DNA of 64,000 bases from Promethearchaeota archaeon (GTDB taxonomy: Archaea > Asgardarchaeota > Lokiarchaeia > Sigyniarchaeales > SOKP01). This document shows, piece after piece, positions 44,703 through 64,000 of this stretch. How positions within the stretch are numbered: the stretch's first letter is position 1; each line of letters starts with the position of its first letter. The translations under genes were made by a program, and so were the position numbers. The notes beneath the pieces were generated by a model, which was not told where the DNA came from, did not search any database, and saw only the letters and a program-made list of their open reading frames with translations. The stretch lies in contig JAHLWP010000018.1 of NCBI GenBank assembly GCA_019057865.1, positions 1 to 64,000 of the forward strand. Direction: 5' to 3'.

Positions 44703-44706
44703 AAAG

Positions 44707-45159
44707 ATGACTTTACAAACAAAACAAGAAGAAAATATAAATGAAGAATGGGAACCAAAAATTATAGCATTTTTATGTAATTGGTGTTCCTATGCCGGAG
44801 CAGATTTAGCGGGAGTTAGTAGAATTCAATATCCTCCTACTATTAGAGTTGTGAGGGTTCCATGTTCGGGTAGAGTAAACCCATACTTTATTATTAAGAG
44901 TTTGATGGATGGGTGGGATGGAATTGTTGTTTCAGGTTGCCATCCTGGAGATTGTCATTATCTGACAGGAAATTTAGTAGCAAGAAGGCGATTTGCTATT
45001 TTAAAAGAATTATTAGAATTTTTCGGTATAGAGCCAGGAAGAGTTAATTTTATGTGGGCTTCTGCTGCTGAGGGTGAACGTTTTGCTACTTTAATTAAGA
45101 AAGCTACAAATATAGTTAAAAAATTAGGACCAAATAAAAAATTTGAAAAGAAGTGGTGA
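44707..45159 (+). CDS. mvhD: MvhD/FlxD [2Fe-2S] subunit
   Basis: CNWCSY, PCSGR, GCHPGDCHY. Confidence 0.9.
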   Translation: MTLQTKQEENINEEWEPKIIAFLCNWCSYAGADLAGVSRIQYPPTIRVVRVPCSGRVNPYFIIKSLMDGWDGIVVSGCHPGDCHYLTGNLVARRRFAILKELLEFFGIEPGRVNFMWASAAEGERFATLIKKATNIVKKLGPNKKFEKKW

Positions 45160-45164
45160 TGATT

Positions 45165-46184: not shown

Positions 46185-46198
46185 AAAGGTGATAAAGA

Positions 46199-48092: not shown

Positions 48093-48134
48093 ACTAATTG
48101 ATTAAAGAGGAAAAAGAAAAGAGGTTAAAAAAAA

Positions 48135-49244: not shown

Positions 49245-49673
49245 TAATCTAATTTTTTTTTTATTTAGATGATTGTTTCTATAAAAATTCGTATTCTAAA
49301 TTGAGATTAAGGAAATAAAATTGATAGGTTTTGTTCAAAAGGCAACTAATTTCAGATAAGATCGATTTTTTTTATACAATTTTGTAACCTTATAATTATT
49401 CTGATATATTAAATCTTAGATTTTTTATGTTATCTGTCGGATATATTACAAATTTCATTATCACAATTTTGTTTTAGATAAAATTTGTACATTATTGTCT
49501 ATCGGAAAGGATGATTTTTTCATAATTTTTTTTTATTTTCGATAATATAATTTTAATTTATGGTCGCTTTTGAGCATTTTGTTCCTTTGTGATCGCCTTT
49601 TTCATACAAGTTTCTCGGATGCAGCATTTTTTGGATTAAAAACGTTCGATTCTGAAAATTGAATAGTGTATTT

Positions 49674-49703
49674 ATGATCGAGATCGATCATTTCATTTAA
49701 ATA
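49674..49703. promoter_or_regulatory. perfect palindrome ATGATCGA-GA-TCGATCAT just upstream of a TATA-like TTTAAATA
   Basis: Read directly; about 110-135 nt upstream of the second Hdr cluster. Confidence 0.45.
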
Positions 49704-49808
49704 GGTAATTTTCTTATAAAATTACAGTATAAAAAAAAAAAAAATTACATTAGAATTTATTTTTGAGGATTATTTTTAGCGATAATGAAAGTTTTAAGGT
49801 GATATATT

Positions 49809-51065
49809 ATATCAGGAAATGAAATCGAAAAGTTAATCAAGAGTTCTGATTTAGATAGATCCTTTATTAAATCTCTATCCAAAATTGAGGGAGCAAAAAG
49901 TATATTAGCTTGTTTTCAATGTGGAATGTGCTCATCAAGCTGTCCTATTGAAGAGCAATTTCCTTTAAGTCCAGATGATTTAACTAAAATAGCTGCAATT
50001 GGTGCGAAAAACAAGATTTTAAGAGAAAATGTCCTTAGATATTGCTTAACTTGCCGAACTTGTCAAGAATATTGCCCACAAGGTGTTGATTTTATTGAAT
50101 TCATTAAAGCAGCTAGAAGGTTATTAGTAGACAAGGGTATGAAATATGAGGAGACTCATGATGGGATATTAACTCTTCTAAATGAAATACAAGCAAAACA
50201 ATCATCAGGCTTAATATTACCCTCTGATTTAATACCAGAGGGATCTCAAATATCTAGAAAGGGTAAGATAGCATATTTTATTGGATGCTTACCAATTCTG
50301 GATGTTGTTTTTAATAATTTAGACTTAAATTTGCAAGGAATTGCGCAAAATGGAATAAAGATCATGAATGAGGTACTCGAAAAGCCACCAATAATTCTTG
50401 GAAATATGAAATGTTGTGGACATGATGCCCTTTGGAAGGGACATTTTGAGACTTTTAAAAAATTGGCAGAATATAATGTGAACGAAATCAATAAGTTAGG
50501 TATTGAAACTATCATTACAACATGTGCAGAATGTTATAGAACGTTAAAATTAGATTATCCGAAATATATTGAAAATGCCAATTTTAAGGTCATTCACCTT
50601 ACAGAATTGATTGCTGATGAAGTTGAAAGTGGTCAATTTGAATTTTTAGACTCTCCTAATCGGGCAGTTACATATCATGATCCTTGCAGATTAGGAAGGC
50701 ACATGAAAGTTTATTCACCTCCTAGAAAAATCCTTAATTCAATGGAAGAACACGGGATCATATTTAATGAAATGCCAAGATCCAAGGAAAATTCTGTTTG
50801 CTGTGGAGTAAGTTGCTTTATAAATTGTAATGATCTATCAAAGGCTTTACAGCTCGATAGAATAAAAGAAGCAAAAAAGGTTGCAGATTTATTAGTAACC
50901 TCTTGTCCAAAATGCCAAATTCATTATAATTGTATGCTTCAAGAGAAAAAAGAAAAAATTTCTGATGAAATAAAGTTAGAAATTACAGATATAACAAATT
51001 TAATAGCTAATATGATGGGTTTTTCAGAAGAGAAAAAAGATGAAGTATTATTAGCCTCCCCTTAA
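49809..51065 (+). CDS. HdrD/GlpC-like Fe-S + CCG-domain oxidoreductase; probable ATA start
   Basis: CFQCGMCSSSCP begins upstream of the first ATG; CLTCRTCQEYCP, CCG twice, YHDPC. Confidence 0.85.
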   Translation: MSGNEIEKLIKSSDLDRSFIKSLSKIEGAKSILACFQCGMCSSSCPIEEQFPLSPDDLTKIAAIGAKNKILRENVLRYCLTCRTCQEYCPQGVDFIEFIKAARRLLVDKGMKYEETHDGILTLLNEIQAKQSSGLILPSDLIPEGSQISRKGKIAYFIGCLPILDVVFNNLDLNLQGIAQNGIKIMNEVLEKPPIILGNMKCCGHDALWKGHFETFKKLAEYNVNEINKLGIETIITTCAECYRTLKLDYPKYIENANFKVIHLTELIADEVESGQFEFLDSPNRAVTYHDPCRLGRHMKVYSPPRKILNSMEEHGIIFNEMPRSKENSVCCGVSCFINCNDLSKALQLDRIKEAKKVADLLVTSCPKCQIHYNCMLQEKKEKISDEIKLEITDITNLIANMMGFSEEKKDEVLLASP

Positions 51066-51089
51066 AGTACTTAAGAAGGTTGTAATTAA

Positions 51090-52820
51090 ATGTCTAATAA
51101 AGAAGAAAATAAAGAAGAATCTGTAAGGATTGGAACTTTTATTTGTCTATGTGGCTCAAAAATAGGAAGTGTCATAGATTGTAAATTACTCGCGGATTTT
51201 GCGAAGACATTTCCTGATGTAATATATTCTGAAGATAATTTATTTGCTTGCTCAGAATCAGGGTTAGCTAGTATTAAAAACGCAATTGAAAAATATAATT
51301 TAGAGAGAGTTGTAATAGCAGCCTGTACTCCAAGCACACATGAAAGTCTTTTTCAGAATACAATCCGAGAATCAGGAATAAATCCATATTTATTTGCATT
51401 AGTAAATATTCGTGACCAATGTGCTTGGGCGCATATGTCTGAACCTGAAAAAGCGATGGAAAAAGCAAAAGAGTTAATCGCATTAAACGTTTCAAGAGTT
51501 AAGCTTCTGGAACCTATCTATGAAACAACTGTAGATATCTGCCATTCTGCGTTAGTAATAGGTGGGGGAATAGCCGGACTAACAGCGGCACTTAGTTTAG
51601 GTAACCAGGGATTTAACTCATGTATTATTGAAAGAGAAAAAGAACTTGGGGGATTAGTTAGAAAGATTCACTATATTTTAGGAACTGGAGATCCTCAAGA
51701 ATATCTTAAAAGTCTAATTGAACAGGTTAAAAATCATAAAAGGATTAAAATTTTTACAAATGTTAAGATAGAAGAAATAAATGGATTCATCGGAAATTTC
51801 TCAACATTAATAAAATATAATGGTCGAAAAAAAGAACTTGAGTCTGGAGTAATTATAGTTGCAACCGGAGGAAGAGAGTACAAGCCGAGAGAATTTTTAT
51901 ATGGTACGGATGAAAGAATCATAACACAGTTGGAATTAGAACAAAAAATTGTAGCCGATCAAGTAAAAGGACAAACAATAGCAATGATACAGTGTGTCGG
52001 ATCTAGAAATGAAGAAAGACCAAATTGTAGCAGAATTTGTTGTGTAGAAGCAATTAAAAATGCTTTAAAATTAAAAGAAAAAAACCCTAGACTAAATGTT
52101 TGCATTTTAAATAGAGATATTCATACCTATGGTTTTAAAGAAGATTATTATAACGAAGCAAGAGAAAAAGGAGTAATTTTTATTCAATTTGATGAAAATT
52201 TTGAACCAATAGTTAATATCAAAACTAATAAATTGACGATTACTGTAAAAGATGTGTTATTAAATGAGCGTGTAACCCTTAAAACAGATCTTATTGCTTT
52301 AAGCTCTGCTTTTCTTCCCTCAGAAAATATGGAGCTTTCTAAAATGTTAAAAGTACCACTTGATAAAAACGGATTTTTCTTAGAAGCTCATGTTAAACTA
52401 CGTCCACTTGATTTCGCAACTAGCGGAATATTCTTATGTGGCGCAGCACAATGGCCAAAATTCATTGATGAAACAATTTCACAAGCATTAGGAGCTGCCT
52501 CTAGAGCGGGCACTATTTTATCAAAAGAAAAAATAAATATTGTCGGCTCTGTTGCAGAAATCGATGAGGATATGTGCATTGGTTGCGGTAATTGTAGGGA
52601 TTTATGCGCCTATAATGCAATAGAAATTGGTGAAAGGCAATCAGAGTATAAAGCAGAAGATATAATACAAGAACCTATAGTAGAGTTAACTTGGTATAAA
52701 TCTAAGGTTCTTCAAGCTTTTTGTAAAGGCTGTGGAGCGTGTATTGACGTATGTCCTGTTGGAGCCTTGTCTTTAAAGCATTTTACTTTTCAACAAATTT
52801 CAAATAATTTTACTAAATAA
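51090..52820 (+). CDS. hdrA: HdrA-type flavoprotein (C-terminal-half type)
   Basis: CLCG, ACTP, GGGIAG, QCVGSR, EAHVKLRP. Confidence 0.88.
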   Translation: MSNKEENKEESVRIGTFICLCGSKIGSVIDCKLLADFAKTFPDVIYSEDNLFACSESGLASIKNAIEKYNLERVVIAACTPSTHESLFQNTIRESGINPYLFALVNIRDQCAWAHMSEPEKAMEKAKELIALNVSRVKLLEPIYETTVDICHSALVIGGGIAGLTAALSLGNQGFNSCIIEREKELGGLVRKIHYILGTGDPQEYLKSLIEQVKNHKRIKIFTNVKIEEINGFIGNFSTLIKYNGRKKELESGVIIVATGGREYKPREFLYGTDERIITQLELEQKIVADQVKGQTIAMIQCVGSRNEERPNCSRICCVEAIKNALKLKEKNPRLNVCILNRDIHTYGFKEDYYNEAREKGVIFIQFDENFEPIVNIKTNKLTITVKDVLLNERVTLKTDLIALSSAFLPSENMELSKMLKVPLDKNGFFLEAHVKLRPLDFATSGIFLCGAAQWPKFIDETISQALGAASRAGTILSKEKINIVGSVAEIDEDMCIGCGNCRDLCAYNAIEIGERQSEYKAEDIIQEPIVELTWYKSKVLQAFCKGCGACIDVCPVGALSLKHFTFQQISNNFTK

Positions 52821-52841
52821 AAAAAAGAGGATAAGCTTAAA

Positions 52842-54527
52842 ATGTTAGAAGAAGGAAAGAATGAAAAAGAGATTAGAGTAGGAGTATTTGTTTGTCATTG
52901 TGGTTCTAATATCGGCGGAGTGATTGATTGTAAGAAACTCGCTAAATATGCGAAGAAATTACCTAATGTGGTTTATACTGAAGATAATCTTTACACATGC
53001 TCTGAAAATGGATTAGCCAGCATTAAGAAGGCAATAAAAGAGTATAATTTAAATCGGATAGTTGTAGCATCATGTACTCCAAGAACTCATGAACCTTTGT
53101 TTCGCGAATGTATCTCAGAAGCAGGATTAAATCCCTACCTTTTCAATTTTGTCAATATTAGAGAACAATGTTCATGGGTTCATAGGCAATATCCTAATGA
53201 AGCCTATGAGAAGGCAAAAGATCTAATTAGCATGGGAGTGGCTAAAGCCACAAAATTAGAACCTTTGGAAATGATTACAATAAAAATTAATCCTAATGCT
53301 TTAGTAATTGGTGGTGGAATTTGCGGAATGAGTGCTGCACTTAATTTAAGTAGACAGGGATTTAAAACTTATCTTATTGAAAAGGAGAATGAATTAGGTG
53401 GAAGGTTAAATACACTTTATAAACTATTTCCACATGACACCGAGGCTTTAGAGCTAATAAAGGATATTAAAAATAAAGTTCAAAAAGCTAGGAATTTAGA
53501 AGTTTATACAACAACAAGAATAAAAAATATTGATGGATTTGTGGGGAATTACGATATAGAAATTGTACAGAATGGTAAAATTATCAATTTAACAGTAGGA
53601 GCGATAATCGTTGCTGTAGGTTCTTCGACACTTACACCTGAAGGCATGTTTGGATATGATGGCAAAATAAGAATAACTCAGTACGAATTGGAAGCAAAAC
53701 TAAGAAGAAATGAAATAGATGCAAATAATGTTATAATGATACAATGCGTGGGATCTCGGAATGATGAGAGACCTTATTGTTCAAGCATTTGCTGCATGAC
53801 AGCTATAAAGAATGCGCTAATTATCAAAGAAAGAAATCCAATTTCAAATATTACGATATTATTTAGAGATTTATACTCTCCCGGGACTAATTATGAAAAA
53901 TATTATAGAAACGCAAGAGAAAAAGGAATACTCTTTATAAAATACAAACCTGATAAATTGCCTTCTGTAGAAGAAAATCAAATAAAGGTATTTAATGAAT
54001 ACATTGGAGATCATATAATAATTCCTTATGATTTATTGGTATTATCAACTCCATTAGTTGCCAATGAAGATAATAAGGAACTTGCGCAAAAATTAAAAGT
54101 ACCATTGGAAGCCAACAATTTCTTCTTAGAAGCCCACGTAAAGTTACGCCCTAATGATTTTGCGACAGATGGAGTATATGTAGGTGGCTCAGCAAAATGG
54201 CCTGTGGACGTCTCAGAAACTATAACTCAAGGTTATGCAGCAGCAGCTAGGGCGAGTACGATTTTGTCTCATGAGACGATTAAAGTAGAGGGTGCTATTG
54301 CTACTGTAGATCCTGAAAAATGCATAGGATGCGGATCCTGCGAAATGATCTGTCCATTTAATGCTATACAAATAGAAAGGATGGAATTGGGGTTAAAAGC
54401 CACCATTTTTTCAGCTGTTTGTAAGGGCTGTGGAGTTTGTGGTGCAAGTTGTCCTTTAAATGCAATTTCTATGAAACATTTTATGGACCTTCAAATATAT
54501 GAACAAATATATGCATTATCAGAATGA
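52842..54527 (+). CDS. hdrA: HdrA-type flavoprotein, close paralog of 39235..40917
   Basis: CHCG, SCTP, QCVGSR; identical DNA tracts shared with the 39235 gene. Confidence 0.9.
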   Translation: MLEEGKNEKEIRVGVFVCHCGSNIGGVIDCKKLAKYAKKLPNVVYTEDNLYTCSENGLASIKKAIKEYNLNRIVVASCTPRTHEPLFRECISEAGLNPYLFNFVNIREQCSWVHRQYPNEAYEKAKDLISMGVAKATKLEPLEMITIKINPNALVIGGGICGMSAALNLSRQGFKTYLIEKENELGGRLNTLYKLFPHDTEALELIKDIKNKVQKARNLEVYTTTRIKNIDGFVGNYDIEIVQNGKIINLTVGAIIVAVGSSTLTPEGMFGYDGKIRITQYELEAKLRRNEIDANNVIMIQCVGSRNDERPYCSSICCMTAIKNALIIKERNPISNITILFRDLYSPGTNYEKYYRNAREKGILFIKYKPDKLPSVEENQIKVFNEYIGDHIIIPYDLLVLSTPLVANEDNKELAQKLKVPLEANNFFLEAHVKLRPNDFATDGVYVGGSAKWPVDVSETITQGYAAAARASTILSHETIKVEGAIATVDPEKCIGCGSCEMICPFNAIQIERMELGLKATIFSAVCKGCGVCGASCPLNAISMKHFMDLQIYEQIYALSE

Positions 54528-54548
54528 TTATTGGAGAAAGGTGTTCAA

Positions 54549-55313
54549 ATGTATAACCCAAAAATTTTAGGATTTTTATGTAATTGGTGCTCATATGCGG
54601 GTGCAGATCTTGCCGGTGTTTCGCGATTCAATTATCCACCAAATTTAAGGATAATTAGAGTAATGTGCAGCGGAAGAATTGATCCAAATTTTATTTTGAC
54701 AGCATTCGAAAAAGGTTTAGACGGAGTATTGGTAGCAGGATGTCACCTTGGAGATTGCCATTATCTTACAGGAAATTATCATACAAAATATAAGATTTTA
54801 ATGATGAAAAAGATACTTGAAAAACTTGGGTTTGAAACAAAGAGATTACGACTTGAATGGGTATCTGCTGCCGAAGGGAAAATATTTGCAGATTTAATAA
54901 CTGAATTTACTGAAGAACTGATAAAACTAGGACCTTTATCTGTTAAATTTGACAAAATTTTGATAAAGAATTTGTTTTTTGCCAAACAAATCTGTTCTGA
55001 CTTTAGACTTAGATGGTTAATTAGTAGAGAAAGGGATTTAGTTGAAAGTGAAAATGCTTATGGTGAAAAAATTCCCGAGGAGAAATTTGAAAAATTATTA
55101 GACCATATAATAGAAACAGAATTGATTAAAATTAAAATTCAAAATCTTATTGAAGAAAAGGGTTTATCTGCAGAAGAGATTTCAAGTAAATTAAAAATTC
55201 CATCAGAAAAAGTTATGGAACATCTTATTACAATGAATGATGACCATAAAATAACATTTAATATCAAAAACAAAATGGCAATATTTGCTAAAGAGGGAGG
55301 AATGGTTAAATGA
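54549..55313 (+). CDS. mvhD: MvhD with C-terminal wHTH extension
   Basis: CNWCSY, MCSGR, GCHLGDCHY; tail LSAEEISSKLKIPSEKVMEHL. Confidence 0.88.
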   Translation: MYNPKILGFLCNWCSYAGADLAGVSRFNYPPNLRIIRVMCSGRIDPNFILTAFEKGLDGVLVAGCHLGDCHYLTGNYHTKYKILMMKKILEKLGFETKRLRLEWVSAAEGKIFADLITEFTEELIKLGPLSVKFDKILIKNLFFAKQICSDFRLRWLISRERDLVESENAYGEKIPEEKFEKLLDHIIETELIKIKIQNLIEEKGLSAEEISSKLKIPSEKVMEHLITMNDDHKITFNIKNKMAIFAKEGGMVK

Positions 55314-58300
55314 GTAAACTTGAATCTAAAATTAAAATAGGAGCAGTATTAGTAGTCGGAGGTGGAATTGCCGGGATACAAACATCATTAGATCTCGCAG
55401 AGTTAGGATTTAAAGTCTTTATAGTAGAGAGTTCTCCCGCAATAGGTGGTATCATGAGCCAATTAGATAAAACATTTCCTACAAATGACTGTGCAATGTG
55501 CATTTTAAGCCCTAAATTAGTAGAGGTGGGTAGACATCAAAACATTCAAATAATTACTCACGCTGAAGTTGAGAATCTAGAGGGTTCGGCTGGAAATTTT
55601 AATGTTATATTAAAAAAGTATCCAAGATATATCAATGAAGATAAATGTACAGGTTGTGGACTTTGTTCAGAGTGGTGCCCGATCGAAACTTCAAATGAAT
55701 ATGATGAGGGATTACGAAAAAGAAAAAGTATTTTTATTAAATATCCACAAGCAATTCCAAAATTACCATCTATAGATAGAACAATTTGTATCGGTTGCCG
55801 GTTATGTGAATATATATGTGAAGCAAAAGCCATTGATTTTACTCAAAAAGAAGAAATGATTGAATTGAAAGTCGGTTCTATAATTGTCGCTCAAGGATCT
55901 ACTCCCTATAATCCGTTACCTCTAAAAATGTATGGATATGGGCGTTTTTCGAACGTGATAGCAAGTACCGAATTTGAACGAATATTGAGTGCATCTGGAC
56001 CTTTCATGGGTCATGTTTTACGACCTTCCGACGGAAAAATACCAGAAAAAATAGTATGGATACAATGTATTGGTTCAAGAGATCGAAGAATAGGTAATAA
56101 TTATTGTTCAGCAGTTTGTTGCATGTACGCAATTAAAGAAGCAATAATTGCAAAGGAGCATGAACCAGAAATTGACTGTTACATTTTTTTTATAGATATA
56201 AGAGCTTATGGAAAAGGATTCGAGGATTATTATCTGAGAGCTCAAGAATTAGGAATCAAATTCTTAAGAGGAAAAATTGCCTTAATTAATGAAGATCCAC
56301 AAACGAAAAGTTTAATTATAGCCCATGAAAATAGTGAAACAGGGGAGGTAATAGAAGAACATTTTGATATGGTTGTTCTCTCTATAGGTTTGCAACCTTC
56401 TAATTCTGGTATTGATTTGAGTAAAAAATTGGGAGTTAATCTTAATAAATATAATTTTATTGACACAAATATATTTTCTCCTTTAGAAACTAATAAGCCC
56501 GGGATTTTTGTATGTGGGACTTGTTCTGGTCCTAAAGATATTCCTGAAACAGTAGCAGAAGCAAGTGGCGTGGCTGGAAAAGTCTCTTCATTTCTTTCTA
56601 CTGAAAGAAATACATTAACATCTATAAAAGAATATCCTCCTGAACTTTCAATTGAAGATCAAGAAGCTAGGATTGGAGTATTTATTTGCCACTGTGGAAT
56701 AAACATCGGTGGAATTGTAAATATCCCTGAAGTAGTTAAATTTGCTAAAACTCTTCCTAACGTTGCTTATGCTGAAGAAAATTTGTATACCTGTTCCCAA
56801 GATACCCAAGATAAAATGAAACAAATAATAGAAGAATATAAATTAAATAGGGTTGTTGTAGCCTCTTGTACTCCTCGGACACACGAATCATTGTTCCACA
56901 ATACCATTAGAGAAGCAGGATTGAATCCTTATTTATTTGAATTAGTAAATATTAGAGAACAGTGTTCCTGGGTTCATATGTCCATCCCTGAAGAAGCTAC
57001 AGAAAAAGCAAAAGACCTAGTAGCAATGAATGTTGCCAAAGCTAAACTTTTAGAACCAATATATGAAACATCTGTAGATATTACGCACTCCGGTCTAGTA
57101 ATAGGCGGTGGAATAGCAGGAATGAATGCTGCATTAGAATTAGCAAATCAAGGTTTTGAAGTTTATTTGATTGAAAAAGAAAAAGAGTTAGGTGGTTTTG
57201 TAAGAAATATACATTATGTTCTAGAAGATGGGGATCCTCAAGAATATCTCGAGCAAATTGTTAATCAAGTATTAAATCATGATAAAATTAAAGTATTCAC
57301 TAGCACAAAGATTAAAGATGTACAGGGATTCGTCGGAAATTTTCTAGTTACAGTGAATTATAATAGTAAGAAAAAAGAACTTGATACTGGAGTAATTATT
57401 GTTGCTACAGGTGGAACAGAATATAAACCAATGGAATACATGTATGGAACTGATGAAAGAATATTAACTCAGCAAGAATTGGAACAAAAGATTGTTTTAA
57501 ATGAAATAGATGCAGAAACAGTTGTAATGATTCAATGCGTTGGTTCGAGAAATGAAGAACGTCCTAATTGTAATAGAATATGTTGTTCTCTTGCATTAAA
57601 AAATGCTTTAAAGTTAAAAGAGAAAAACCCTAAGAGGAATATTTGTATTCTATATAGAGATATTCGAACTTATGGTTTTAAGGAGAATTACTACGGGGAA
57701 GCAAGAGAAAAAGGGATTATTTTTATCCGATATGATGAAAAACTCGAACCCGAGGTTAGCATTAAAGAGAATAAGTTGATTGTCTCTGTAAATGATTCAT
57801 TATTAAATGAACAAATAGTTATTAAGCCTGATCTTATAGTATTGAGTGCTGGCTTTTTACCAACAGAAAATAAAGAATTATCCCAAATGTTAAAAGTTCC
57901 CCTTGAACAGAATGGATTTTTCCTAGAAGCACATGTGAAGCTTCGTCCACTTGATTTTGCTACTGATGGAATTTTCGTATGTGGAACGGCACAATGGCCA
58001 AAATTTATTAATGAGACAATTCCACAAGCAAAAGGAGCAGCGGCGAGAGCTGCTACAATTTTATCTAAAGAAAAAATGAAAATTATAGGTTCAACTGCAG
58101 AAATCGAAGAAAATAAATGTATGGGTTGCGGTGAATGTAGGGATATATGTATTTATGATGCAATTGAGCCAATTGAGACCATAATTAATTTTAAAGGTAT
58201 CCTGGATTCAGAAATTCCATATGTAAGTTTAATCCGATATAAATCTAGAGTCCTTCCGGCTGTATGTAAAGGATGTGGAGCTTGTGAAGGTGTTTGTCCA

Positions 58301-58372
58301 GTTGGGGCTATAAGTTTAAAGCATTTCACAAATCAACAATTAATTGCTATGATTCAATCTTATTTAGGATAA
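55310..58372 (+). CDS. hdrA: large tandem HdrA
   Basis: Two FAD modules, LDKTFPTNDC, CHCG. Confidence 0.92.
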   Translation: MSKLESKIKIGAVLVVGGGIAGIQTSLDLAELGFKVFIVESSPAIGGIMSQLDKTFPTNDCAMCILSPKLVEVGRHQNIQIITHAEVENLEGSAGNFNVILKKYPRYINEDKCTGCGLCSEWCPIETSNEYDEGLRKRKSIFIKYPQAIPKLPSIDRTICIGCRLCEYICEAKAIDFTQKEEMIELKVGSIIVAQGSTPYNPLPLKMYGYGRFSNVIASTEFERILSASGPFMGHVLRPSDGKIPEKIVWIQCIGSRDRRIGNNYCSAVCCMYAIKEAIIAKEHEPEIDCYIFFIDIRAYGKGFEDYYLRAQELGIKFLRGKIALINEDPQTKSLIIAHENSETGEVIEEHFDMVVLSIGLQPSNSGIDLSKKLGVNLNKYNFIDTNIFSPLETNKPGIFVCGTCSGPKDIPETVAEASGVAGKVSSFLSTERNTLTSIKEYPPELSIEDQEARIGVFICHCGINIGGIVNIPEVVKFAKTLPNVAYAEENLYTCSQDTQDKMKQIIEEYKLNRVVVASCTPRTHESLFHNTIREAGLNPYLFELVNIREQCSWVHMSIPEEATEKAKDLVAMNVAKAKLLEPIYETSVDITHSGLVIGGGIAGMNAALELANQGFEVYLIEKEKELGGFVRNIHYVLEDGDPQEYLEQIVNQVLNHDKIKVFTSTKIKDVQGFVGNFLVTVNYNSKKKELDTGVIIVATGGTEYKPMEYMYGTDERILTQQELEQKIVLNEIDAETVVMIQCVGSRNEERPNCNRICCSLALKNALKLKEKNPKRNICILYRDIRTYGFKENYYGEAREKGIIFIRYDEKLEPEVSIKENKLIVSVNDSLLNEQIVIKPDLIVLSAGFLPTENKELSQMLKVPLEQNGFFLEAHVKLRPLDFATDGIFVCGTAQWPKFINETIPQAKGAAARAATILSKEKMKIIGSTAEIEENKCMGCGECRDICIYDAIEPIETIINFKGILDSEIPYVSLIRYKSRVLPAVCKGCGACEGVCPVGAISLKHFTNQQLIAMIQSYLG

Positions 58373-58386
58373 TGAGGTGTATAAAT

Positions 58387-58818
58387 ATGGAAAAAGATAA
58401 AAAAGGGTTTAATCCAAAAATAATTACATTTTTATGTAATTGGTGTGGTTATGCTGGAGCTGATTTAGCAGGAGTAAGTCGTTTTCAATATCCTCCTACC
58501 ATTAGAATAATAAGGGTAATGTGTTCTGGAAGAATCCAACCCTCTTTAATACTTAATGCATTTAATCGTGGAAGTGATGGAGTTTTAGTATGTGGATGCC
58601 ATTTAGGGGATTGCCATTATATTTCGGGAAATGAAAAAGCTGAGGAAGGAATTAAGATAACTCAAAAATTACTTGATTTTTTAAGAATTGAACCAGAAAG
58701 ACTTAGATTGGAATGGGTATCAGCAGCGGAAGGGGCTAAGTTTGCAGATGTAGTAAAAAATTTTACCGAGCATCTTATTTCAATCGGACCAATTAATATA
58801 GAAAGCGAGAGTGTGTAA
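58387..58818 (+). CDS. mvhD: MvhD [2Fe-2S] subunit
   Basis: CNWCGY, MCSGR, GCHLGDCHY; GAGGTG SD before ATG 58387. Confidence 0.9.
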   Translation: MEKDKKGFNPKIITFLCNWCGYAGADLAGVSRFQYPPTIRIIRVMCSGRIQPSLILNAFNRGSDGVLVCGCHLGDCHYISGNEKAEEGIKITQKLLDFLRIEPERLRLEWVSAAEGAKFADVVKNFTEHLISIGPINIESESV

Positions 58819-58823
58819 GAAAT

Positions 58824-61800
58824 ATGGTAGAGAGTAATAATTCTGAAAAACAAGTATTGGTAATAGGGGGTGGTGTAGCTGGGATTTCTGCTGCCCTAGA
58901 CCTAGCAGATCAAGGTCATCTTGTCTATTTAGTTGAAAAAAGCCCCTCAATTGGAGGGAAAATGGCTCAATTGGATAAAACTTTTCCGACTTTGGATTGT
59001 TCAATATGTATTTTAGCACCTAAAATGGTCGAATGTGCTCGTCACCCTCGAATTGAACTTTTAACTTATTCAGAAGTGAAAAGAGTTGACCGAATTCGTA
59101 ATGGATCTACCTTCAAGGTAAGAATTCTACTTAAACCTAGATATATTGATAGTTCAAAATGCACTTCATGTGGAACATGTGCGCAAAAATGCCCCTATAA
59201 AAATTTTCCCTCTGAATTTGAACAAGGGTTAAGTAAAAGAGGTGCTGCGTATATTCCTTTCCTTCAAGCAGTTCCAGCTGTATATCTTATTGATTCAGAA
59301 AATTGTACTTACTTTAAAAATGGTACATGCAAGGTATGTGAAAAATTTTGTCCGGCCCACGCAGTAGATTTTGAACAAAAACCAAAAGAAATAGAAATTG
59401 AAGTCGCTTCCATTATAGTAGCCACTGGTTTTGATCTAATGGATGTTAGTTCCTTAGAGAGGTACGGATATGGAAAATATTCCAATGTAACTGTATCCTT
59501 GGAATATGAAAGAATTATGTGTGCATCAGGTCCAACTAAAGGCGAAATTTTACGCCCTTCCGATAATAAACACCCCCACAAGATAGGATTTATTCTATGT
59601 GTTGGATCGAGAAATGTTAATTTAAAGCCTTATTGTTCTAAAATTTGTTGTATGTATGCTACAAAAGAAGCAATTATGACGATGGAACACCATTCTGATG
59701 CAGAAATTTTGGTTTTTTATAATGATTTACGCACGATTGGAAAGAATCATAATGAATTTATTGATAGAGCTAAATCAGATTATAAGGTTCAATATGTCAG
59801 AGGTTTACCTAATAAGATTTATGAAAATACAGAAACAAAAGATCTTATAATAAGACATAAAGACTTTGACACAGGTGAAATTAAATTTGATACAGTAGAT
59901 ATGGTTGTTTTATTTCCAGCAGTTATACCTAGCAGAGGAGCAGAGGAATTTAATGATATATTAGGGGTCGAAATGGACGAATATGGTTTTATAAAGCCAG
60001 TATCATCAACAAATAATATTGAAACTAATATTCCTGGAATTTATGTATGTGGATGTGTTCATGGTCCAGAAGATATTTCAACCTCTGTTGCTGAGGCTAG
60101 CGGTGCTGCTAGTAAAGCAGCTTCTAGAACTTCAATAACTACTATAGATGAAATAAAAGAAGATATTGTTGAAAGAAAAGTATCTAAAAGCGATCCTCCT
60201 CGAATCGGTGTTTTTATCTGTCATTGTGGTTCTAATATTGCAGGCTTTGTGGATGTTAAAAAGGTAGCGGAAGAAATTAAAACTGTTCCTGATGTAGCTT
60301 ATGTTGAAAGAAATTTATATACTTGTTCGGAAGAATCTCAGAATAGTATAAAGGCGGCAATTGAAAAATATGATTTAAATAGGGTTGTAATTGCTGCGTG
60401 TACTCCTAGAACCCATCTTCCATTATTTCAGGGCACTTGTCATGAAGTAGGTCTTAATCCATATTTAGTCCTATTTGCAAGTATTAGAGAATTAGTGAGT
60501 TGGGTTCACATGTCAGAACCTGAAAAAGCTACACAAAAAGCAAAGGAACAGATTTTAATGTGTATCGCAAAATCTCGGCTTGTAGAACCATTACACGATA
60601 TTGAAGTTAATGTATTACCTGCTTCATTAGTTATTGGAGGGGGAATTGCAGGCATGACTGCAGCATTGGCTATGGCAAAAAAAGGATTTAAAGTATACAT
60701 CGTAGAGCGGAGTGAAAATCTTGGTGGATTCATTCGGAACTTAAATGAAATTAATACTGAGGGAACCTCTTCAGAACAAGTACTAACTCCAATATTGCAA
60801 GCAATAAAGACAAATCCTAATATAGAAGTTTTCATATCCTCAACAATAAAAGCTGTAAATGGTTCAATTGGCAACTTTCTAATAGTTATTGAACAAAACA
60901 GTGAAGAAAAAGAAATTAAAACTGGCACTATTATTGTTGCTGTGGGAGGAAAAGAATTTAAACCAAATGGATATTACCATTATGAAGAATATGAAAATAT
61001 CTTTACAAATTTAGAACTTGAAGGTTTAATTCGAAATGAGCAATTACAAGATGGTGAATCTATTGCTTTTATTCAATGCGTTGGTTCCCGTGAAGAACAA
61101 GGAAGAACTTATTGTTCATTGACTTGTTGTGAAGAATCTATAAAAAATGCTTTAACTGTCAAGAAGCGGTATCCTAATTCTCAGATTTTCATATTTTATC
61201 GAGACATAAGAGTATCTTATAAAGAAGAGATTGAATATAGAAAAGCAAGAGAAAAAGGCATTAATTTTATACAATATAAACCGGAAAATCCCCCAATGTT
61301 GAAAAATAAGGATGACAAATTAATATTAAATGTGTCTGATGCTTTAACAAGAATGAAATTCGAATTATCTTTAGATAAAGTAGTGCTTGCTACTCCTTTA
61401 ATAGCATGGGAAGAAAATAAAAAGCTATCTGAAATGTTAAAAGTCCCCCTTGATAAAAACGGTTTCTTTTTTGAAGCACATCCTAAATTAAGACCTGTTG
61501 ATTTTGCTACGGATGGAATCTTCACATGTGGAACTGCTCAATGTCCTAAAAATATAAAAGAATCTTTAAGTCAAGCTCTGGGCGCGGCATCTAGAGCTTT
61601 AATCCCCTTAATGAATAGTAAAGCATCGGTCGAGGGTGCTACATCAAGTTTACCTGAATTTAATAAAAAATTATGTACAGGCTGTGAAGTCTGTCTAACT
61701 GTATGTCCTTATAATGCCATCTCTAAGAACGAATTAGATGAGATTGAAATAAATCAAGTTCTTTGTAAAGGCTGTGGAGTATGTGGGGCTACGTGTACTA

Positions 61801-61895
61801 ATCAAGCTCTTGTAATAAAACATTTCACAAATGAGCAAATTATTTCTCAAATCAATTCTTGTAAAGAAGAAAAACTGGTTGAACTAAAGTTATAA
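58824..61895 (+). CDS. hdrA: large tandem HdrA
   Basis: Two FAD modules, LDKTFPTLDC, CHCG, EAHPKLRP. Confidence 0.92.
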   Translation: MVESNNSEKQVLVIGGGVAGISAALDLADQGHLVYLVEKSPSIGGKMAQLDKTFPTLDCSICILAPKMVECARHPRIELLTYSEVKRVDRIRNGSTFKVRILLKPRYIDSSKCTSCGTCAQKCPYKNFPSEFEQGLSKRGAAYIPFLQAVPAVYLIDSENCTYFKNGTCKVCEKFCPAHAVDFEQKPKEIEIEVASIIVATGFDLMDVSSLERYGYGKYSNVTVSLEYERIMCASGPTKGEILRPSDNKHPHKIGFILCVGSRNVNLKPYCSKICCMYATKEAIMTMEHHSDAEILVFYNDLRTIGKNHNEFIDRAKSDYKVQYVRGLPNKIYENTETKDLIIRHKDFDTGEIKFDTVDMVVLFPAVIPSRGAEEFNDILGVEMDEYGFIKPVSSTNNIETNIPGIYVCGCVHGPEDISTSVAEASGAASKAASRTSITTIDEIKEDIVERKVSKSDPPRIGVFICHCGSNIAGFVDVKKVAEEIKTVPDVAYVERNLYTCSEESQNSIKAAIEKYDLNRVVIAACTPRTHLPLFQGTCHEVGLNPYLVLFASIRELVSWVHMSEPEKATQKAKEQILMCIAKSRLVEPLHDIEVNVLPASLVIGGGIAGMTAALAMAKKGFKVYIVERSENLGGFIRNLNEINTEGTSSEQVLTPILQAIKTNPNIEVFISSTIKAVNGSIGNFLIVIEQNSEEKEIKTGTIIVAVGGKEFKPNGYYHYEEYENIFTNLELEGLIRNEQLQDGESIAFIQCVGSREEQGRTYCSLTCCEESIKNALTVKKRYPNSQIFIFYRDIRVSYKEEIEYRKAREKGINFIQYKPENPPMLKNKDDKLILNVSDALTRMKFELSLDKVVLATPLIAWEENKKLSEMLKVPLDKNGFFFEAHPKLRPVDFATDGIFTCGTAQCPKNIKESLSQALGAASRALIPLMNSKASVEGATSSLPEFNKKLCTGCEVCLTVCPYNAISKNELDEIEINQVLCKGCGVCGATCTNQALVIKHFTNEQIISQINSCKEEKLVELKL

Positions 61896-62124
61896 GTTCT
61901 GGTAAGAGGAGATTTTACCTATATAAGTAGACATTAAAGGAAGGAAATAAGTAAAATTACTTTTAAAAAATTTTTATATCCTTTTATTTTGTGTTTGTTA
62001 TTTGAAAAAAATCAATAATGAATCTAATTCAATAGATAGAGTCAATAATACCTTCAAATATTCTTTTTCTCCATACTTGTTTTTAAAATAGACATCTAAT
62101 ACACCAGTAATCGTAAAAAAGACT

Positions 62125-62310
62125 CCAAGTCTAATTAATCTTGAAGAATTAGAAATCTCAGTCCATAATATACAAAGATTGCCGTTGTTCATAAAAAATC
62201 TTAAAAACCTTAAAATCTTGAGAGTTTACTCTTCAGAGAATCTGAAGAATAAAGAAAGACCAAAATGGTTAAAGGAGATGCCTAACTTAGTAAAAATTCA
62301 ATTTTATTAA
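62125..62310 (+). pseudogene. orphan 3' fragment of an LRR gene
   Basis: PSLINLEELEISVHNIQRLPLFIKNLKNLKILRVY…PKWLKEMPNLVKIQFY*; no 5' part. Confidence 0.6.
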
Positions 62311-62358
62311 CCATTAACAAGACTGAAATTATTTTAAAAGTTATAATGATACAAGTAT

Positions 62359-62455
62359 AAAAAGAAAAGAAAAATAAAAAACTTGTTTAAAAAAATGGAT
62401 TTTTGAATTGTACTTAGGAGATTGCCCTGTTAGAAACATCGGTGGATTACCTGCG
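62359..62455 (-). repeat. orphan actin 3' end (QVIHRCF*, 62430-62453) with its 3' UTR; copy of 63849-63944
   Basis: Shared blocks aaaagaaaagaaaaataaaaaac and aaaaaaatggatttttga, plus synonymously recoded terminal codons. Confidence 0.85.
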
Positions 62456-62467
62456 TAATCCTCTAAA

Positions 62468-62569
62468 CTTAATACATCAGTAAAGAAATCAGAAATGCTA
62501 GCTAAAATTATAAGCTTTGGGAAAAGAAAATTTGAGAGATACAATAAAGCATTAAAAAAAAGGAAATAG
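62468..62569 (+). pseudogene. orphan 3' end of an frhB-family gene (copy of 49146-49244)
   Basis: LNTSVKKSEMLAKIISFGKRKFERYNKALKKRK* vs resident LNTSVKKSEMLAKVISFGKRKFQRYKEALKER*; 27/32 aa identical. Confidence 0.9.
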
Positions 62570-62794
62570 GTAAAATTATTTATTTTTTTATTTCTTCTTT
62601 TATTTCGTAAGATTCTGCTAGATGTGGTATTAATAATAAACAACAAGCTAAAAATAACTATAAATCTTTAATGCTTCTCGTCTAGCCGATCCCTTCAGGT
62701 AAGTCTGACTCTGATGTGCGAAATTATATCGATTTCATGGCAATGGATTATTACTTCTCCCAATATCCAAGATTAGTAGTTTTCTTTTTTTGGA

Positions 62795-62947
62795 TTATAT
62801 TTTATTTATTTTTAAGAATTGGCTTTTTTTACGATTTCTTTGTTGTTTAATTTTATTAATAGATTTTATTGATTTGAGAAAAAGCATTCGAATTTCGGCT
62901 TTTTTGACATGGTAAAGACGATATTTATCATCAATTTTTTGACTCAT
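62795..62947 (-). CDS. possible 50-aa basic protein
   Basis: MSQKIDDKYRLYHVKKAEIRMLFLKSIKSINKIKQQRNRKKSQFLKINKI*; ORF evidence only. Confidence 0.3.
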   Translation of the reverse strand: MSQKIDDKYRLYHVKKAEIRMLFLKSIKSINKIKQQRNRKKSQFLKINKI

Positions 62948-63023
62948 TTAAGAAAAAATAATCATGAGAAAAAAGAATAAAAAAATAAATGAAAAAATAA
63001 AAAACTTGAAGAGGTTTACCTCT

Positions 63024-63086
63024 TTAGAAACATCGGTGTATTACTTGTGGACCCATTTCTTTGTATTCTCGCCTCGTGACCCACAT
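63024..63086 (-). pseudogene. orphan actin 3' end, or 20-aa ORF MWVTRREYKEMGPQVIHRCF
   Basis: Peptide identical to 63919-63981 with 11 synonymous third-position changes; followed by a hairpin (63009-63024) and a T-rich tract. Confidence 0.88.
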
Positions 63087-63309
63087 ACGATATAATACAA
63101 TCTAATACAATCTGAAATATGAGATAGAATTTATTGTTTTTTGTTGATATCTATTGAATTTTAACATAAATTGAATTAATGAGATAATAATTTTCATTCA
63201 ATTCTATTTTTATTCAAGATTTTAAGAATAAAAAAGGAAAATAAAAAAAATTAAATAAAGAGATAAAAGTAGAATCTAAAAATATATTAATTTATGGTTT
63301 TTTCATTAT

Positions 63310-63651
63310 TTATTTTGCAATATATTCGTCTGGATCGCCACCATCTTCGAGATGTTCAATGAAATTTTTCAATCCATTTAAAATAGTTGTAAGAGAACGC
63401 TTTTTTATTTTTTCATGCTTTAAAATTTTATAATCAACCCAATACGATAATTCTGTCATGTCGCCTTTCTCTTTTAATATATAGCCATATCCATTAAAAT
63501 CAGGGTGGTTTACTTTCAATGAAAGACTTTCATTTTCTATTCGATCTGTAATAGTGATATTCAATTTAGAAGCGAGAGTTATGTTTTCTAAAACCTCCCA
63601 AATTTTTTTTGGAGGAGCTCTAATTTCGATATTTGATTCAAACTTAGGCAT
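63310..63651 (-). CDS. SRPBCC/START-like protein, short and possibly internally deleted
   Basis: ESNIEIRAPPKKIWEVL start, LNGLKNFIE terminal helix. Confidence 0.7.
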   Translation of the reverse strand: MPKFESNIEIRAPPKKIWEVLENITLASKLNITITDRIENESLSLKVNHPDFNGYGYILKEKGDMTELSYWVDYKILKHEKIKKRSLTTILNGLKNFIEHLEDGGDPDEYIAK

Positions 63652-63918
63652 AAAATCACTTCATAAATTTTTGAACTATCTTAAGTCATTTTGATTTTTA
63701 TACTTTTGCTCCAAATTTAAAAATTCATATAAAAATAGCTTTAAAAATGATGCCTATAAGGAGCTTGGAAAGAAAATCTATCTCTTTACTTATAGTAATT
63801 TTTATTGTTCAGATACTAAAATTAAGAATTAAGATTTGAAGTCTTGAAAAAAAGAAAAGAAAAATAAAAAACGGGTTAAAAAAATGGATTTTTGATTTAC
63901 GTTGAGGAGATTTCCCCA

Positions 63919-64000
63919 TTAGAAGCATCGGTGAATTACTTGCGGTCCCATCTCCTTATATTCGCGTCTGGTTACCCACATGCGATGGAAAGTTTTAAGT
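63919..64000 (-). CDS. actin homolog (Lokiactin-type), 3' end only; continues beyond the window
   Basis: LKTFHRMWVTRREYKEMGPQVIHRCF* aligns with the eukaryotic actin C-terminus [27 protein letters not shown]. Confidence 0.85.
   Translation of the reverse strand, partial: LKTFHRMWVTRREYKEMGPQVIHRCF

What the first reader, a model, noticed from the sequence alone, without database searches (positions are those of the whole stretch)
62359..64000. Three copies of the actin C-terminus: the actin 3' end as a probable integration/replacement hotspot
Seen: on the minus strand the edge ORF ends LKTFHRMWVTRREYKEMGPQVIHRCF* (stop 63919-63921). The same 20 residues recur at 63024-63086 with 11 nucleotide differences, all synonymous third positions and none changing an amino acid. 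QVIHRCF* recurs at 62430-62453, again recoded, with about 70 nt of matching 3' UTR. Unrelated cargo lies between the copies (SRPBCC gene, small ORF, gene fragments). Established: elements such as e14 and phage 21 integrate inside icd, supply a synonymous replacement 3' end and leave the old tail downstream. Inference: the actin gene of this Asgard-like archaeon has repeatedly received DNA that brings its own actin tail. The purely silent divergence means the tails evolved as functional actin ends, probably in other lineages. No integrase is visible, and the two tails differ in length (about 26 vs about 66-69 nt), so the mechanism is open.
Basis: partly seen in the sequence, partly recalled or inferred. 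Interest (0 to 1): 0.9.

Follow-up and report, generated by a model that had tools for sequence, protein, structure and literature searches.

The report
Displaced actin gene ends from recombination
Downstream of the actin gene of a Loki-type Asgard archaeon lie two leftover actin 3' ends and two leftover ends of the facing frhB-like gene, best read as scars of repeated integrase-free recombination with diverged relatives that added genes, including a 13-kb Hdr operon, between the two conserved genes.

Summary
The edge ORF is the end of a full 381-aa actin (contig runs past the window). Orphan tail B differs from the live tail at 12 codons, all synonymous. Tail C (26 nt) carries about 70 nt of actin-type 3' UTR.

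B came from a different, functional actin allele, and actin's 3' end has been replaced. But nothing resembles an e14/phage-21-type integrase element:
- There is no recombinase on the contig and no tRNA nearby.
- Cargo is ordinary cellular genes.
- Orphan start points vary (-147 to -26 nt) across species.
- The tail C junction is a blunt join, with one extra base, to a truncated frhB-like 3' end.

The convergent frhB-like neighbour shows the same pattern, with two orphan tails. Both the live frhB and actin are mosaics relative to the closest relative (about 100% falling to about 75%, and 95% to about 79%).

The best reading is at least three events of homologous crossover inside a conserved gene plus an illegitimate join (HFIR-like), as proposed for Rhs/T6SS C-terminal displacement. 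One event captured the 13-kb second Hdr operon.

Orphan gene ends with the same polarity occur genome-wide. Earlier notes of this scan on this same locus reached a similar integrase-free reading. Interest is moderate.

The parts
48135..49244 (+). Live frhB-like gene (369 aa), a mosaic: G012-like 5' part and a foreign last ~400 nt. The homologous crossover lies at about 48780-48840.
   Evidence: Pfam FrhB_FdhB_N/C on the G012 orthologue. Sliding identity to G012 is ~100% over 48120-48780 and 67-78% over 48840-49259. The same mosaic is present in an independent ENA scaffold at 99.4% identity.
49245..61895 (+). Second Hdr operon (HdrD-like, several HdrA-like, MvhD/FlpD-like genes): cargo inserted between frhB and the first fossil junction.
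   Evidence: ORFs and clusters. Gene calls and Pfam families on L178. Absent from this position in G012, where frhB faces actin.
61860..61975 (+). frhB'' : a decayed orphan 3' end of an frhB-like gene (about the last 29 codons plus flank). The last 11 codons of the final HdrA are read from it in another frame.
   Evidence: 71% identity to G012's frhB 3' end (E 5.6e-8; alignment). Frame 2 reads KVISSGKRRFYLYK*, compared with KVISFGKRKFQRYK in frhB.
61976..62358 (.). Spacer with gene scraps, origin unclear. 62132-62320 resembles (71%) DNA 1.8 kb downstream of actin in G059 but inverted. 62048-62138 is 88% identical to a G063 contig.
62359..62429 (-). Actin-type 3' UTR belonging to tail C.
   Evidence: Aligns with the live actin UTR. 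nhmmer profile positions 75-173, E 5e-11.
62430..62455 (-). Orphan actin tail C: the last 26 nt of an actin CDS including the stop (QVIHRCF*).
62456..62456 (.). A single non-templated base (A on the minus strand) at the blunt junction between tail C and frhB'. The flanking 7-nt inverted repeat GGATTAC/GTAATCC spans the joint.
   Evidence: Three-way comparison of OWN, G012 frhB and live actin.
62457..62656 (+). frhB' : orphan 3' end of a G012-type frhB (coding to 62569, about 37 codons) plus its downstream spacer.
   Evidence: 96% identical to G012. 27 of 32 residues shared with the live frhB tail.
62657..62779 (.). Remnant of the flank of a small gene ('cluster 12') that G012 and G023 carry here. 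The gene itself is absent.
   Evidence: 81% to G023 2060844-2060912
62780..63023 (-). 3' UTR and spacer that follow tail B. Orthologous to the DNA directly downstream of G012's live actin.
   Evidence: The 313-nt alignment including tail B is 85.6% identical to G012.
63024..63092 (-). Orphan actin tail B: the last 22 codons plus stop of a different functional actin allele.
   Evidence: 12 synonymous and 0 non-synonymous differences from R to F, with H->Y at the edge. p<5e-7. No sampled species has this allele at >=90%.
63093..63246 (.). About 155 nt of unknown origin next to the tail B breakpoint. Contains the tandem GATTGTATTA x2 right at the joint.
   Evidence: No match in 54 genus genomes.
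63247..63751 (-). Fragment of a small-protein locus (113-aa gene at 63310-63651 plus its own upstream region). In relatives this locus lies elsewhere in the genome.
   Evidence: 71-83% nt matches to G016, G023 (at 652 kb), G001 and others. Only a sub-threshold Polyketide_cyc2 hint.
63847..63918 (-). 3' UTR of the live actin, of the type conserved across the genus.
   Evidence: Alignment of 20 species. 72-79% matches over tail plus UTR in many genomes.
63919..64000 (-). 3' end of the live actin gene (continues to C31 65064). The gene is mosaic against G012.
   Evidence: The same gene and cargo are in an independent JGI contig at 98.6%.

Best explanation
The gap between two convergent conserved genes, frhB-like (+) and actin (-), is a patchwork left by at least three recombination events with DNA from diverged Promethearchaeota lineages.

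Each event paired incoming DNA with the resident chromosome by homologous crossover inside the conserved gene. That gene acts as the anchor because its nucleotide sequence stays 77-95% alike across species. The far, non-homologous end of the incoming fragment was then closed by an illegitimate join a few hundred nt downstream in the resident copy, still inside the gene's last 26-110 nt. This is the geometry of homology-facilitated illegitimate recombination (HFIR). The live gene acquires a foreign 3' part, new DNA is added behind it, and the resident's old tail is pushed downstream as an orphan.

The layout, left to right on the + strand, is:
frhB(mosaic)> [Hdr operon 2] frhB''> spacer <tailC | frhB'> spacer <tailB [small-gene fragment] <actin(mosaic)

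- Event 1, anchored in frhB: crossover near 48,800, join near 61,860. It brought about 13 kb including the second Hdr operon and displaced frhB''.
- Event 2: joined the two fossil junction units at tail C | frhB'. The anchor side is undetermined.
- Event 3, anchored in actin: crossover around nt 650-800, join 69 nt before the resident stop. It brought tail A, its UTR and the 113-aa gene fragment, and displaced tail B.

What is shown: the copies, the silent-only divergence, both mosaics, the blunt junction, the absence of recombinase genes, and the recurrence in other species.

What is inferred: the HFIR mechanism, the donor and recipient roles, and the order of events.
For: 1. Tail B differs from the live tail only at synonymous sites (12 of 12; p<5e-7). 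It therefore evolved inside a working actin elsewhere.
2. Tail B plus 244 nt of flank is orthologous to the DNA directly behind G012's live actin. frhB' is 96% identical to G012's frhB end. Together they form a fossil of the uninterrupted frhB> <actin junction that G012 still has.
3. The live frhB steps from ~100% to 67-78% identity with G012 about 415 nt before its stop, next to the Hdr2 insert. The live actin steps from 95% (nt 1-650) to ~79% (nt 800-1077), which equals the between-species background. The flanks on both outer sides are collinear with G012 at 88.7% and 95.5%.
4. The tail C | frhB' junction is blunt with one extra base and no shared core. The tail B joint has a tandem 10-mer.
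5. There is no tyrosine recombinase on the contig, no tRNA, and no mobile-element genes in the variable region of this genome or of 20 relatives.
6. Orphan starts vary: -147, -69, about -63, -61, -50, -27, -26.
7. The frhB-actin gap ranges from 94 nt to 3.9 kb in 22 species, against 14.7 kb here.
8. Genome-wide, displaced gene ends show strict polarity. C-terminal orphans: 21 downstream against 2 upstream on the same strand. N-terminal orphans: 7 upstream against 1 downstream. Their cargo is cellular genes with no recombinase.
9. Independent assemblies carry the structures: an ENA scaffold at 99.4% across the frhB mosaic and the Hdr2 junction, a JGI contig at 98.6% across mosaic actin, UTR and cargo gene, and a single-run Logan contig at 100% across all three tails.
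10. HFIR has been proposed for the analogous strings of orphaned 3' regions at Rhs/T6SS loci (PMC5361080).
Against: - If tail B were the resident's old tail on a G012-like backbone, it should resemble G012's tail. It differs at 12 of 69 nt, whereas live tail A differs at only 3. So either G012's tail was itself converted, or the donor and recipient roles are reversed.
- Which of OWN or G012 is the recombinant in actin nt 800-1077 could not be decided.
- No donor genome with a B-type actin, or with Hdr2 between frhB and actin, was found.
- The central 62.3-63.3 kb is covered only by a contig that may come from the source sample. Read-level support could not be obtained.
- HFIR has, to my knowledge, been demonstrated experimentally only in bacteria.
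- Why the joins cluster within the last ~150 nt of the gene is not explained.
- Some other orphan arrays in this genome (C5) look more like decaying in-situ duplications of a target (mostly non-synonymous differences), so the genome-wide pattern may have mixed causes.
Confidence: 0.55

Rival explanations
1. Campbell-type single-crossover integration of circular DNA, without a dedicated integrase. The circles could be circularised fragments of a relative's chromosome, or circles popped out of similar arrays, each carrying a truncated 'frhB-tail> spacer <actin-tail' unit. Unequal exchange between non-identical chromosome copies in one cell is a variant.
For: - It gives the same topology: a live gene, then cargo, then a 5'-truncated tail.
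- The two fossil units (frhB''> <C and frhB'> <B) are exactly what such circles would carry.
- The C5 array repeats a 190-nt 'tail> <tail' unit three times with cargo between copies, where G012 has a single unit.
Against: With only 26-110 nt of homology on the circle, the foreign part of the live gene should be no longer than the orphan. Instead the foreign tracts in frhB (~415 nt) and actin (~300-450 nt) are several times longer than the orphans. No circular form has been observed.
Confidence: 0.2
2. Remnants of site-specific integrative elements (e14/phage-21-like, or archaeal integrase elements) that target the actin 3' end, bring a replacement tail, and have since lost their integrase and most of their genes.
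For: The topology matches, with a replacement tail on the gene and the old tail downstream. The orphans are direct repeats. Protein-gene 3' ends are known attachment sites for some elements (established knowledge).
Against: - No integrase on the contig or in any of 100 related loci inspected for gene content or orphans.
- Breakpoints vary from -147 to -26.
- The junction partner of tail C is a chromosomal frhB end, blunt-joined.
- All identifiable 'cargo' is chromosomal DNA of relatives.
- The facing gene shows the same scars.
Confidence: 0.08
3. Assembly artefact: a chimeric contig stitched from co-occurring related populations.
For: The genome is a MAG with 5% contamination. Mosaic identity to a sister species is what strain-switching would produce. 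My read-mapping attempt failed.
Against: - A single-run Logan contig reproduces 61335-64438 exactly.
- Two other assemblies from other records carry the two outer halves at 98.6-99.4% identity, which means different populations with the same structure.
- The A/B copies share no exact word long enough to mislead a k-mer assembler.
- The tail C | frhB' junction joins non-homologous sequence and must exist in reads.
Confidence: 0.05
4. Local tandem duplication of the actin end within this lineage, followed by divergence.
For: Partial tandem duplications also place a 5'-truncated tail downstream on the same strand. G024's orphan shares synonymous states with its live tail and differs mostly by non-synonymous changes.
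Against: An unselected copy cannot accumulate 12 silent and no replacement changes. The DNA after tail B is not a copy of the DNA after tail A.
Confidence: 0.03

Closest known systems
C-terminal displacement at Rhs / CDI / T6SS effector loci, attributed to homology-facilitated illegitimate recombination (Kirchberger et al. 2017, PMC5361080; Jackson et al. 2009, cited there)
   Same: A conserved 5' part serves as the homology anchor. Incoming DNA supplies a new 3' end plus extra genes. The old 3' ends pile up downstream as strings of orphans. No integrase is involved.
   Different: In those loci the displaced ends are variable toxin domains with immunity genes, and the turnover is thought to be selected. 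Here the replaced ends encode the identical protein (actin) or nearly so (frhB), so the displacement is a neutral by-product of gene capture. It happens from both sides of a convergent gene pair, and in an archaeon.
Homology-facilitated illegitimate recombination in naturally transformable bacteria (de Vries & Wackernagel 2002; Prudhomme et al. 2002; Meier & Wackernagel 2003, as cited in PMC5361080)
   Same: One homologous anchor plus one illegitimate join close to the anchor. A short stretch of recipient DNA is lost between crossover and join. The joins are blunt or have microhomology or filler.
   Different: Those are laboratory events in bacteria with RecA and known DNA uptake. Here the process is inferred from natural footprints in an uncultured Asgard archaeon whose route of DNA entry is unknown.
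e14 and phage 21 integration into icd of E. coli
   Same: The inserted DNA carries an alternative 3' end of the target gene with mostly silent differences, and the old end stays downstream.
   Different: Those elements encode an integrase and use a fixed attachment core. Here no integrase is present, the breakpoints vary, and the inserted DNA is chromosomal DNA of relatives.
Recombination hotspots for accessory genes flanked by conserved core genes in bacterial pangenomes (established concept, from my own knowledge)
   Same: A variable gap sits between two conserved genes. Its content differs between species, and exchange is driven by homology in the flanks (gap of 94 nt to 14.7 kb).
   Different: Ordinary double-crossover replacement leaves no scars. 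This locus preserves the scars of the rarer one-sided events, which lets individual events be read.

Membership tests
Site-specific integrative element targeting a protein-gene 3' end (e14 / phage 21 type) | An integrase (tyrosine or serine recombinase) encoded within or next to the insert | tested here: not met
   PF00589 hits occur only on C27, C79, C82 and C87, none on C31. Pfam scans of ORFs in the variable regions of this and 20 related loci found none.
Site-specific integrative element targeting a protein-gene 3' end (e14 / phage 21 type) | A fixed attachment core, so that repeats start at the same position in independent insertions | tested here: not met
   Orphan starts are at -147, -69, about -63, -61, -50, -27 and -26 nt from the stop.
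Site-specific integrative element targeting a protein-gene 3' end (e14 / phage 21 type) | Insert made of element genes (replication, structural, regulatory), not host chromosome | tested here: not met
   The identifiable pieces are chromosomal DNA of relatives: the actin-downstream spacer and frhB end of G012 type, a small-gene locus found elsewhere in relatives, and an Hdr operon.
Site-specific integrative element targeting a protein-gene 3' end (e14 / phage 21 type) | A replacement 3' end keeps the target gene intact, and the old end remains downstream as a direct repeat | tested here: met
   The actin is intact, with tails B and C on the same strand downstream.
HFIR-type end displacement (as proposed for Rhs/T6SS loci) | Homologous crossover inside the conserved part of the gene, visible as a mosaic live gene | tested here: met
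   frhB goes from 100% to 67-78% identity to G012. Actin goes from 95% to ~79%. Which sister genome is the recombinant for actin is not resolved.
HFIR-type end displacement (as proposed for Rhs/T6SS loci) | An illegitimate join (blunt, microhomology or filler) at the other end of the insert, close to the anchor | tested here: met
   Tail C | frhB' is blunt with 1 extra nt. The joins lie 26-110 nt before the stops, about 300-350 nt downstream of the crossovers. The partner sequence at the tail B joint is of unknown origin, so that joint is only partly characterised.
HFIR-type end displacement (as proposed for Rhs/T6SS loci) | Displaced ends derive from other lineages' functional alleles, not from local duplication | tested here: met
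HFIR-type end displacement (as proposed for Rhs/T6SS loci) | Dependence on strand-exchange protein and uptake of linear foreign DNA | not testable with these tools
   Requires genetics in a cultivable relative.
Integron-like cassette array | An IntI-type integrase with attI, and cassettes each ending in an attC hairpin | tested here: not met
   No integrase. The repeats are gene ends plus UTR, not attC-like. No Rfam or structured-repeat signal.

The most novel reading that the evidence does not exclude
Promethearchaeota may turn over their accessory genes mainly by a systematic, integrase-free 'end-displacement' process. DNA from diverged relatives, possibly entering by cell-cell contact or fusion, is captured next to any sufficiently conserved gene. 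This leaves dozens of displaced gene ends per genome and makes even hallmark eukaryote-like genes such as actin inter-species mosaics. If it is general and frequent, it would be a distinctive mode of gene flow at the base of the eukaryotic lineage and a ready-made record of individual transfer events.
Probability: 0.25. Interest if true: 0.65.

Novelty: new member of a known kind. Interest (0 to 1): 0.42.

Why it matters
The locus gives a readable, event-by-event record of how an Asgard archaeon gains genes without mobile elements. A whole 13-kb electron-bifurcation (Hdr) operon and a small gene were captured beside actin and frhB using those genes as homology anchors. It also shows that the Asgard actin gene, widely used as a marker, is an inter-lineage mosaic at the nucleotide level. 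That matters for gene trees and for inferring recombination among uncultured lineages. Displaced gene ends with strict polarity, seen genome-wide, could serve as a simple computational marker for such events in other archaeal genomes. Natural footprints of HFIR-type recombination are, to my knowledge, scarcely documented in archaea: a full-text search found no paper focused on it.

Tried and rejected
- The look-up of sequencing runs lists 11 runs from several studies holding at least half of the sampled words. Without laying them I cannot say which junctions they hold, so they are not used as evidence.
- An exact-pattern scan of JGI metagenome contigs for the tail C | frhB' junction found nothing. 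This is uninformative.
- Look-ups of the 113-aa and 50-aa ORFs returned only one Logan contig.
- Aloposons (Wu et al. 2022, PMC8813620) were considered and rejected. They integrate at tRNA genes and carry giant genes.
- A paralogue origin for tail B was rejected: the own-genome actin paralogues are at most 41% identical.
- Rfam and tRNA scans of the region were empty.
- G023's apparent 'fusion' of an unrelated N-terminus to an actin C-terminus is a run of N in the scaffold, not biology.
- The weak nhmmer hits covering only the T-rich end of the UTR (E>1e-4) were set aside as generic terminator-like sequence.
- I could not find a genome carrying a B-type actin allele or the donor arrangement frhB-Hdr2-actin.
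Full report
**What is there**

The window is C31:1-64000 of a 73-kb contig in a 4.26-Mb, 87-contig MAG. Related records are titled Promethearchaeota/Promethearchaeia, the Loki-type Asgard archaea. The edge ORF continues beyond the window into a complete 381-aa actin at C31 63919-65064, minus strand.

- Tail A is the live end of actin.
- Tail B (63024-63092) matches it from the Arg codon to the stop, with 12 codon differences, all silent. The next codon upstream is H->Y, and beyond that the sequences are unrelated.
- Tail C (62430-62455) is the last 26 nt of an actin CDS followed by about 70 nt of actin-type UTR, 84.5% identical to A over 97 nt.

Only 19.6% of single substitutions in this stretch are silent, and 0 of 2,000,000 simulated sets of 12 substitutions were all silent. 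Tail B therefore diverged while it was part of a working actin. It did not come from a paralogue, because the genome's other actins are at most 41% identical.

**The neighbour tells the story**

G012 has the closest actin (99.7% aa, 91% nt). It is collinear with this genome on both outer sides of the locus: 95.5% over 3.8 kb upstream of actin and 88.7% over 10.7 kb from the first Hdr cluster to frhB. In G012 an frhB-like gene faces actin, with one small gene between them.

Tail B plus the next 244 nt is orthologous to G012's live actin end and the DNA just behind it (85.6%). A 200-nt piece ending one base from tail C is 96% identical to G012's frhB 3' end and flank.

So 62457-63092 is a miniature fossil of the uninterrupted 'frhB> spacer <actin' junction, truncated inside both genes. 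Earlier notes of this scan on this same locus had pointed to the frhB remnant, and I verified it.

I also found a second, decayed frhB-like tail at about 61860-61975, directly after the last HdrA of the second Hdr operon. That gene's final 11 codons are read from the remnant in another frame. Together with tail C it forms a second fossil unit.

The full layout is:
frhB> [Hdr operon 2, ~12.6 kb] frhB''> spacer <tailC | frhB'> spacer <tailB [small-gene fragment] <actin

**How the joints look**

At tail C | frhB', the frhB homology ends at ...GAGGATT, one extra A follows, and the actin homology begins at CGCAGG. This is a blunt illegitimate join with no shared core. A 7-nt inverted repeat happens to span it. 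At the tail B joint there is a tandem GATTGTATTA x2. The partner sequence there (155 nt) matches nothing in 54 genus genomes.

**The live genes are mosaics**

The live frhB is ~100% identical to G012 over 48120-48780. It then drops to 67-78% for its last ~400 nt, which adjoin the Hdr2 insert.

The live actin is 95% identical to G012 over nt 1-650, ~79% over nt 800-1077 (no closer than to any of 95 other species), and 95.7% over the last 69 nt.

A homologous crossover inside the conserved gene, a foreign 3' part continuous with new DNA, and an illegitimate join a few hundred nt further on in the resident copy, leaving that copy's tail as an orphan, is the geometry of homology-facilitated illegitimate recombination. 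The same mechanism has been proposed for strings of orphaned 3' regions at Rhs and T6SS loci (PMC5361080).

I infer at least three events:
1. An frhB-anchored event that captured the Hdr2 operon (about 13 kb).
2. An event that joined the two fossil units.
3. An actin-anchored event that brought tail A, its UTR and a fragment of a small-gene locus. In relatives that locus lies elsewhere; in G023 it is at 652 kb while actin is at 2,060 kb.

**Why not an integrase element**

- No tyrosine recombinase is on this contig.
- No tRNA lies within 19 kb, and there is no Rfam family.
- ORFs in the variable DNA behind actin in this and 20 related genomes are cellular genes: LRR protein, Ras-like GTPases, Alba, MFS transporter, oxidoreductases, RimK and others.
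- Orphan start points differ between events and species: -147, -69, about -63, -61, -50, -27, -26.

**Recurrence**

Among 80 further species' actin loci, 5-6 carry an extra tail or UTR fragment, always downstream and on the same strand. One (L134) again differs from its live tail only by silent changes. Others (G024, L149/L156) are decaying. G022 has an inverted one upstream. The frhB-actin gap ranges from 94 nt to 3.9 kb in 22 species, and gene content behind actin differs widely within the genus.

**Not specific to actin**

I ran a blastx of all intergenic DNA of this genome against its own ORFs. Among orphan gene ends lying 0.1-20 kb from their parent gene, there is a strict polarity:
- C-terminal orphans: 21 downstream against 2 upstream on the same strand.
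- N-terminal orphans: 7 upstream against 1 downstream.

Several are enriched in silent differences (for example C66 at 32:10 and C75 at 6:1). The DNA between parent and orphan encodes glycosyltransferases, an R-M methylase, radical SAM, subtilase, CoA transferase, VapBC and similar genes, and no recombinase.

Some arrays (C5) show mostly non-synonymous differences, and G012 has a single copy of the repeated unit there. The causes may therefore be mixed.

**Is the assembly real?**

Three assemblies support the structure:
- A single-run Logan contig is 100% identical over 61335-64438 and covers all three tails.
- An ENA scaffold is 99.4% identical over 43135-54238 and covers the frhB mosaic and the Hdr2 junction.
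- A JGI contig is 98.6% identical over 63307-65449 and covers the mosaic actin, UTR and cargo gene.

The middle kilobase still lacks support that is clearly independent of the source sample.

**Open points**

- Tail B is not G012-like (12 of 69 differences), although its flank is. Donor and recipient roles at actin are therefore not settled.
- No donor genome was identified.
- The clustering of joins in the last ~150 nt of the genes is unexplained.
- A Campbell-type insertion of circularised fragments remains a serious alternative. It predicts foreign tracts no longer than the orphans, which is not what is seen.

**Verdict**

This is a new, well-preserved instance of a known kind of process (HFIR-type end displacement) in an Asgard archaeon, and is of moderate interest.

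Noticed in passing
G000 contig C5:1-4500 (locus L080): Between a convergent M29 peptidase gene and a small bPH-like gene, the ~190-nt 'tail> <tail' unit occurs three times. A VapBC toxin-antitoxin pair lies in one interval and SCP2 + GDPD genes in the other. G012 has a single unit with the two genes abutting. The copies differ mostly by non-synonymous changes.
   Followed up: partly
G000 contig C13:3900-7700 (locus L071): Another convergent pair with orphan 3' ends of both genes between and beyond them: 4872-4967(-), 5731-5835(+), 6753-6857(+).
   Followed up: no
G000 genome-wide (for example C66:74649-74855, C75:41804-41947, C6:4543-4740, C34:34257-34544): About 30 displaced gene ends with strict polarity relative to their parent genes. 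Several have a large excess of synonymous differences, and the cargo includes an Eco57I-type R-M methylase, glycosyltransferases and a subtilase.
   Followed up: partly
window 63847-63918 and the equivalent in ~20 species (alignment): The actin 3' UTR is conserved across the genus: a short hairpin after the stop, a middle block, then AAGTTTTTTATTTTTC...TTTTTTATTG. No Rfam family matches. It may be a terminator or an mRNA-stability element.
   Followed up: no
G067:C48:3613-6490; also G018, G044, G046, G062, G066, G007, G024 and others: Many genomes of the genus carry a second actin with an 82-98% identical tail. In G067 (also L102) two full-length actins lie 2.7 kb apart in tandem. This genome has only one.
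   Followed up: no
window 61860-61895: The last 11 codons and the stop of the final HdrA-like gene (58824-61895) are read, in a shifted frame, from the remnant of an frhB-like 3' end. This protein's C-terminus was therefore created by the recombination joint.
   Followed up: partly
window 46800-49260 against G012: Identity between the two sister genomes is itself patchy (98-100% blocks beside 82-90% blocks). This suggests frequent, recent homologous exchange between these species.
   Followed up: partly
G023:C1:2059350-2060684 (locus L180 2851-4185): An apparent 444-aa fusion of a KH/metallo-beta-lactamase (CPSF-like) N-terminus to the actin C-terminus is bridged by a run of N. It is a scaffold gap in a genome listed as one contig.
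   Followed up: yes
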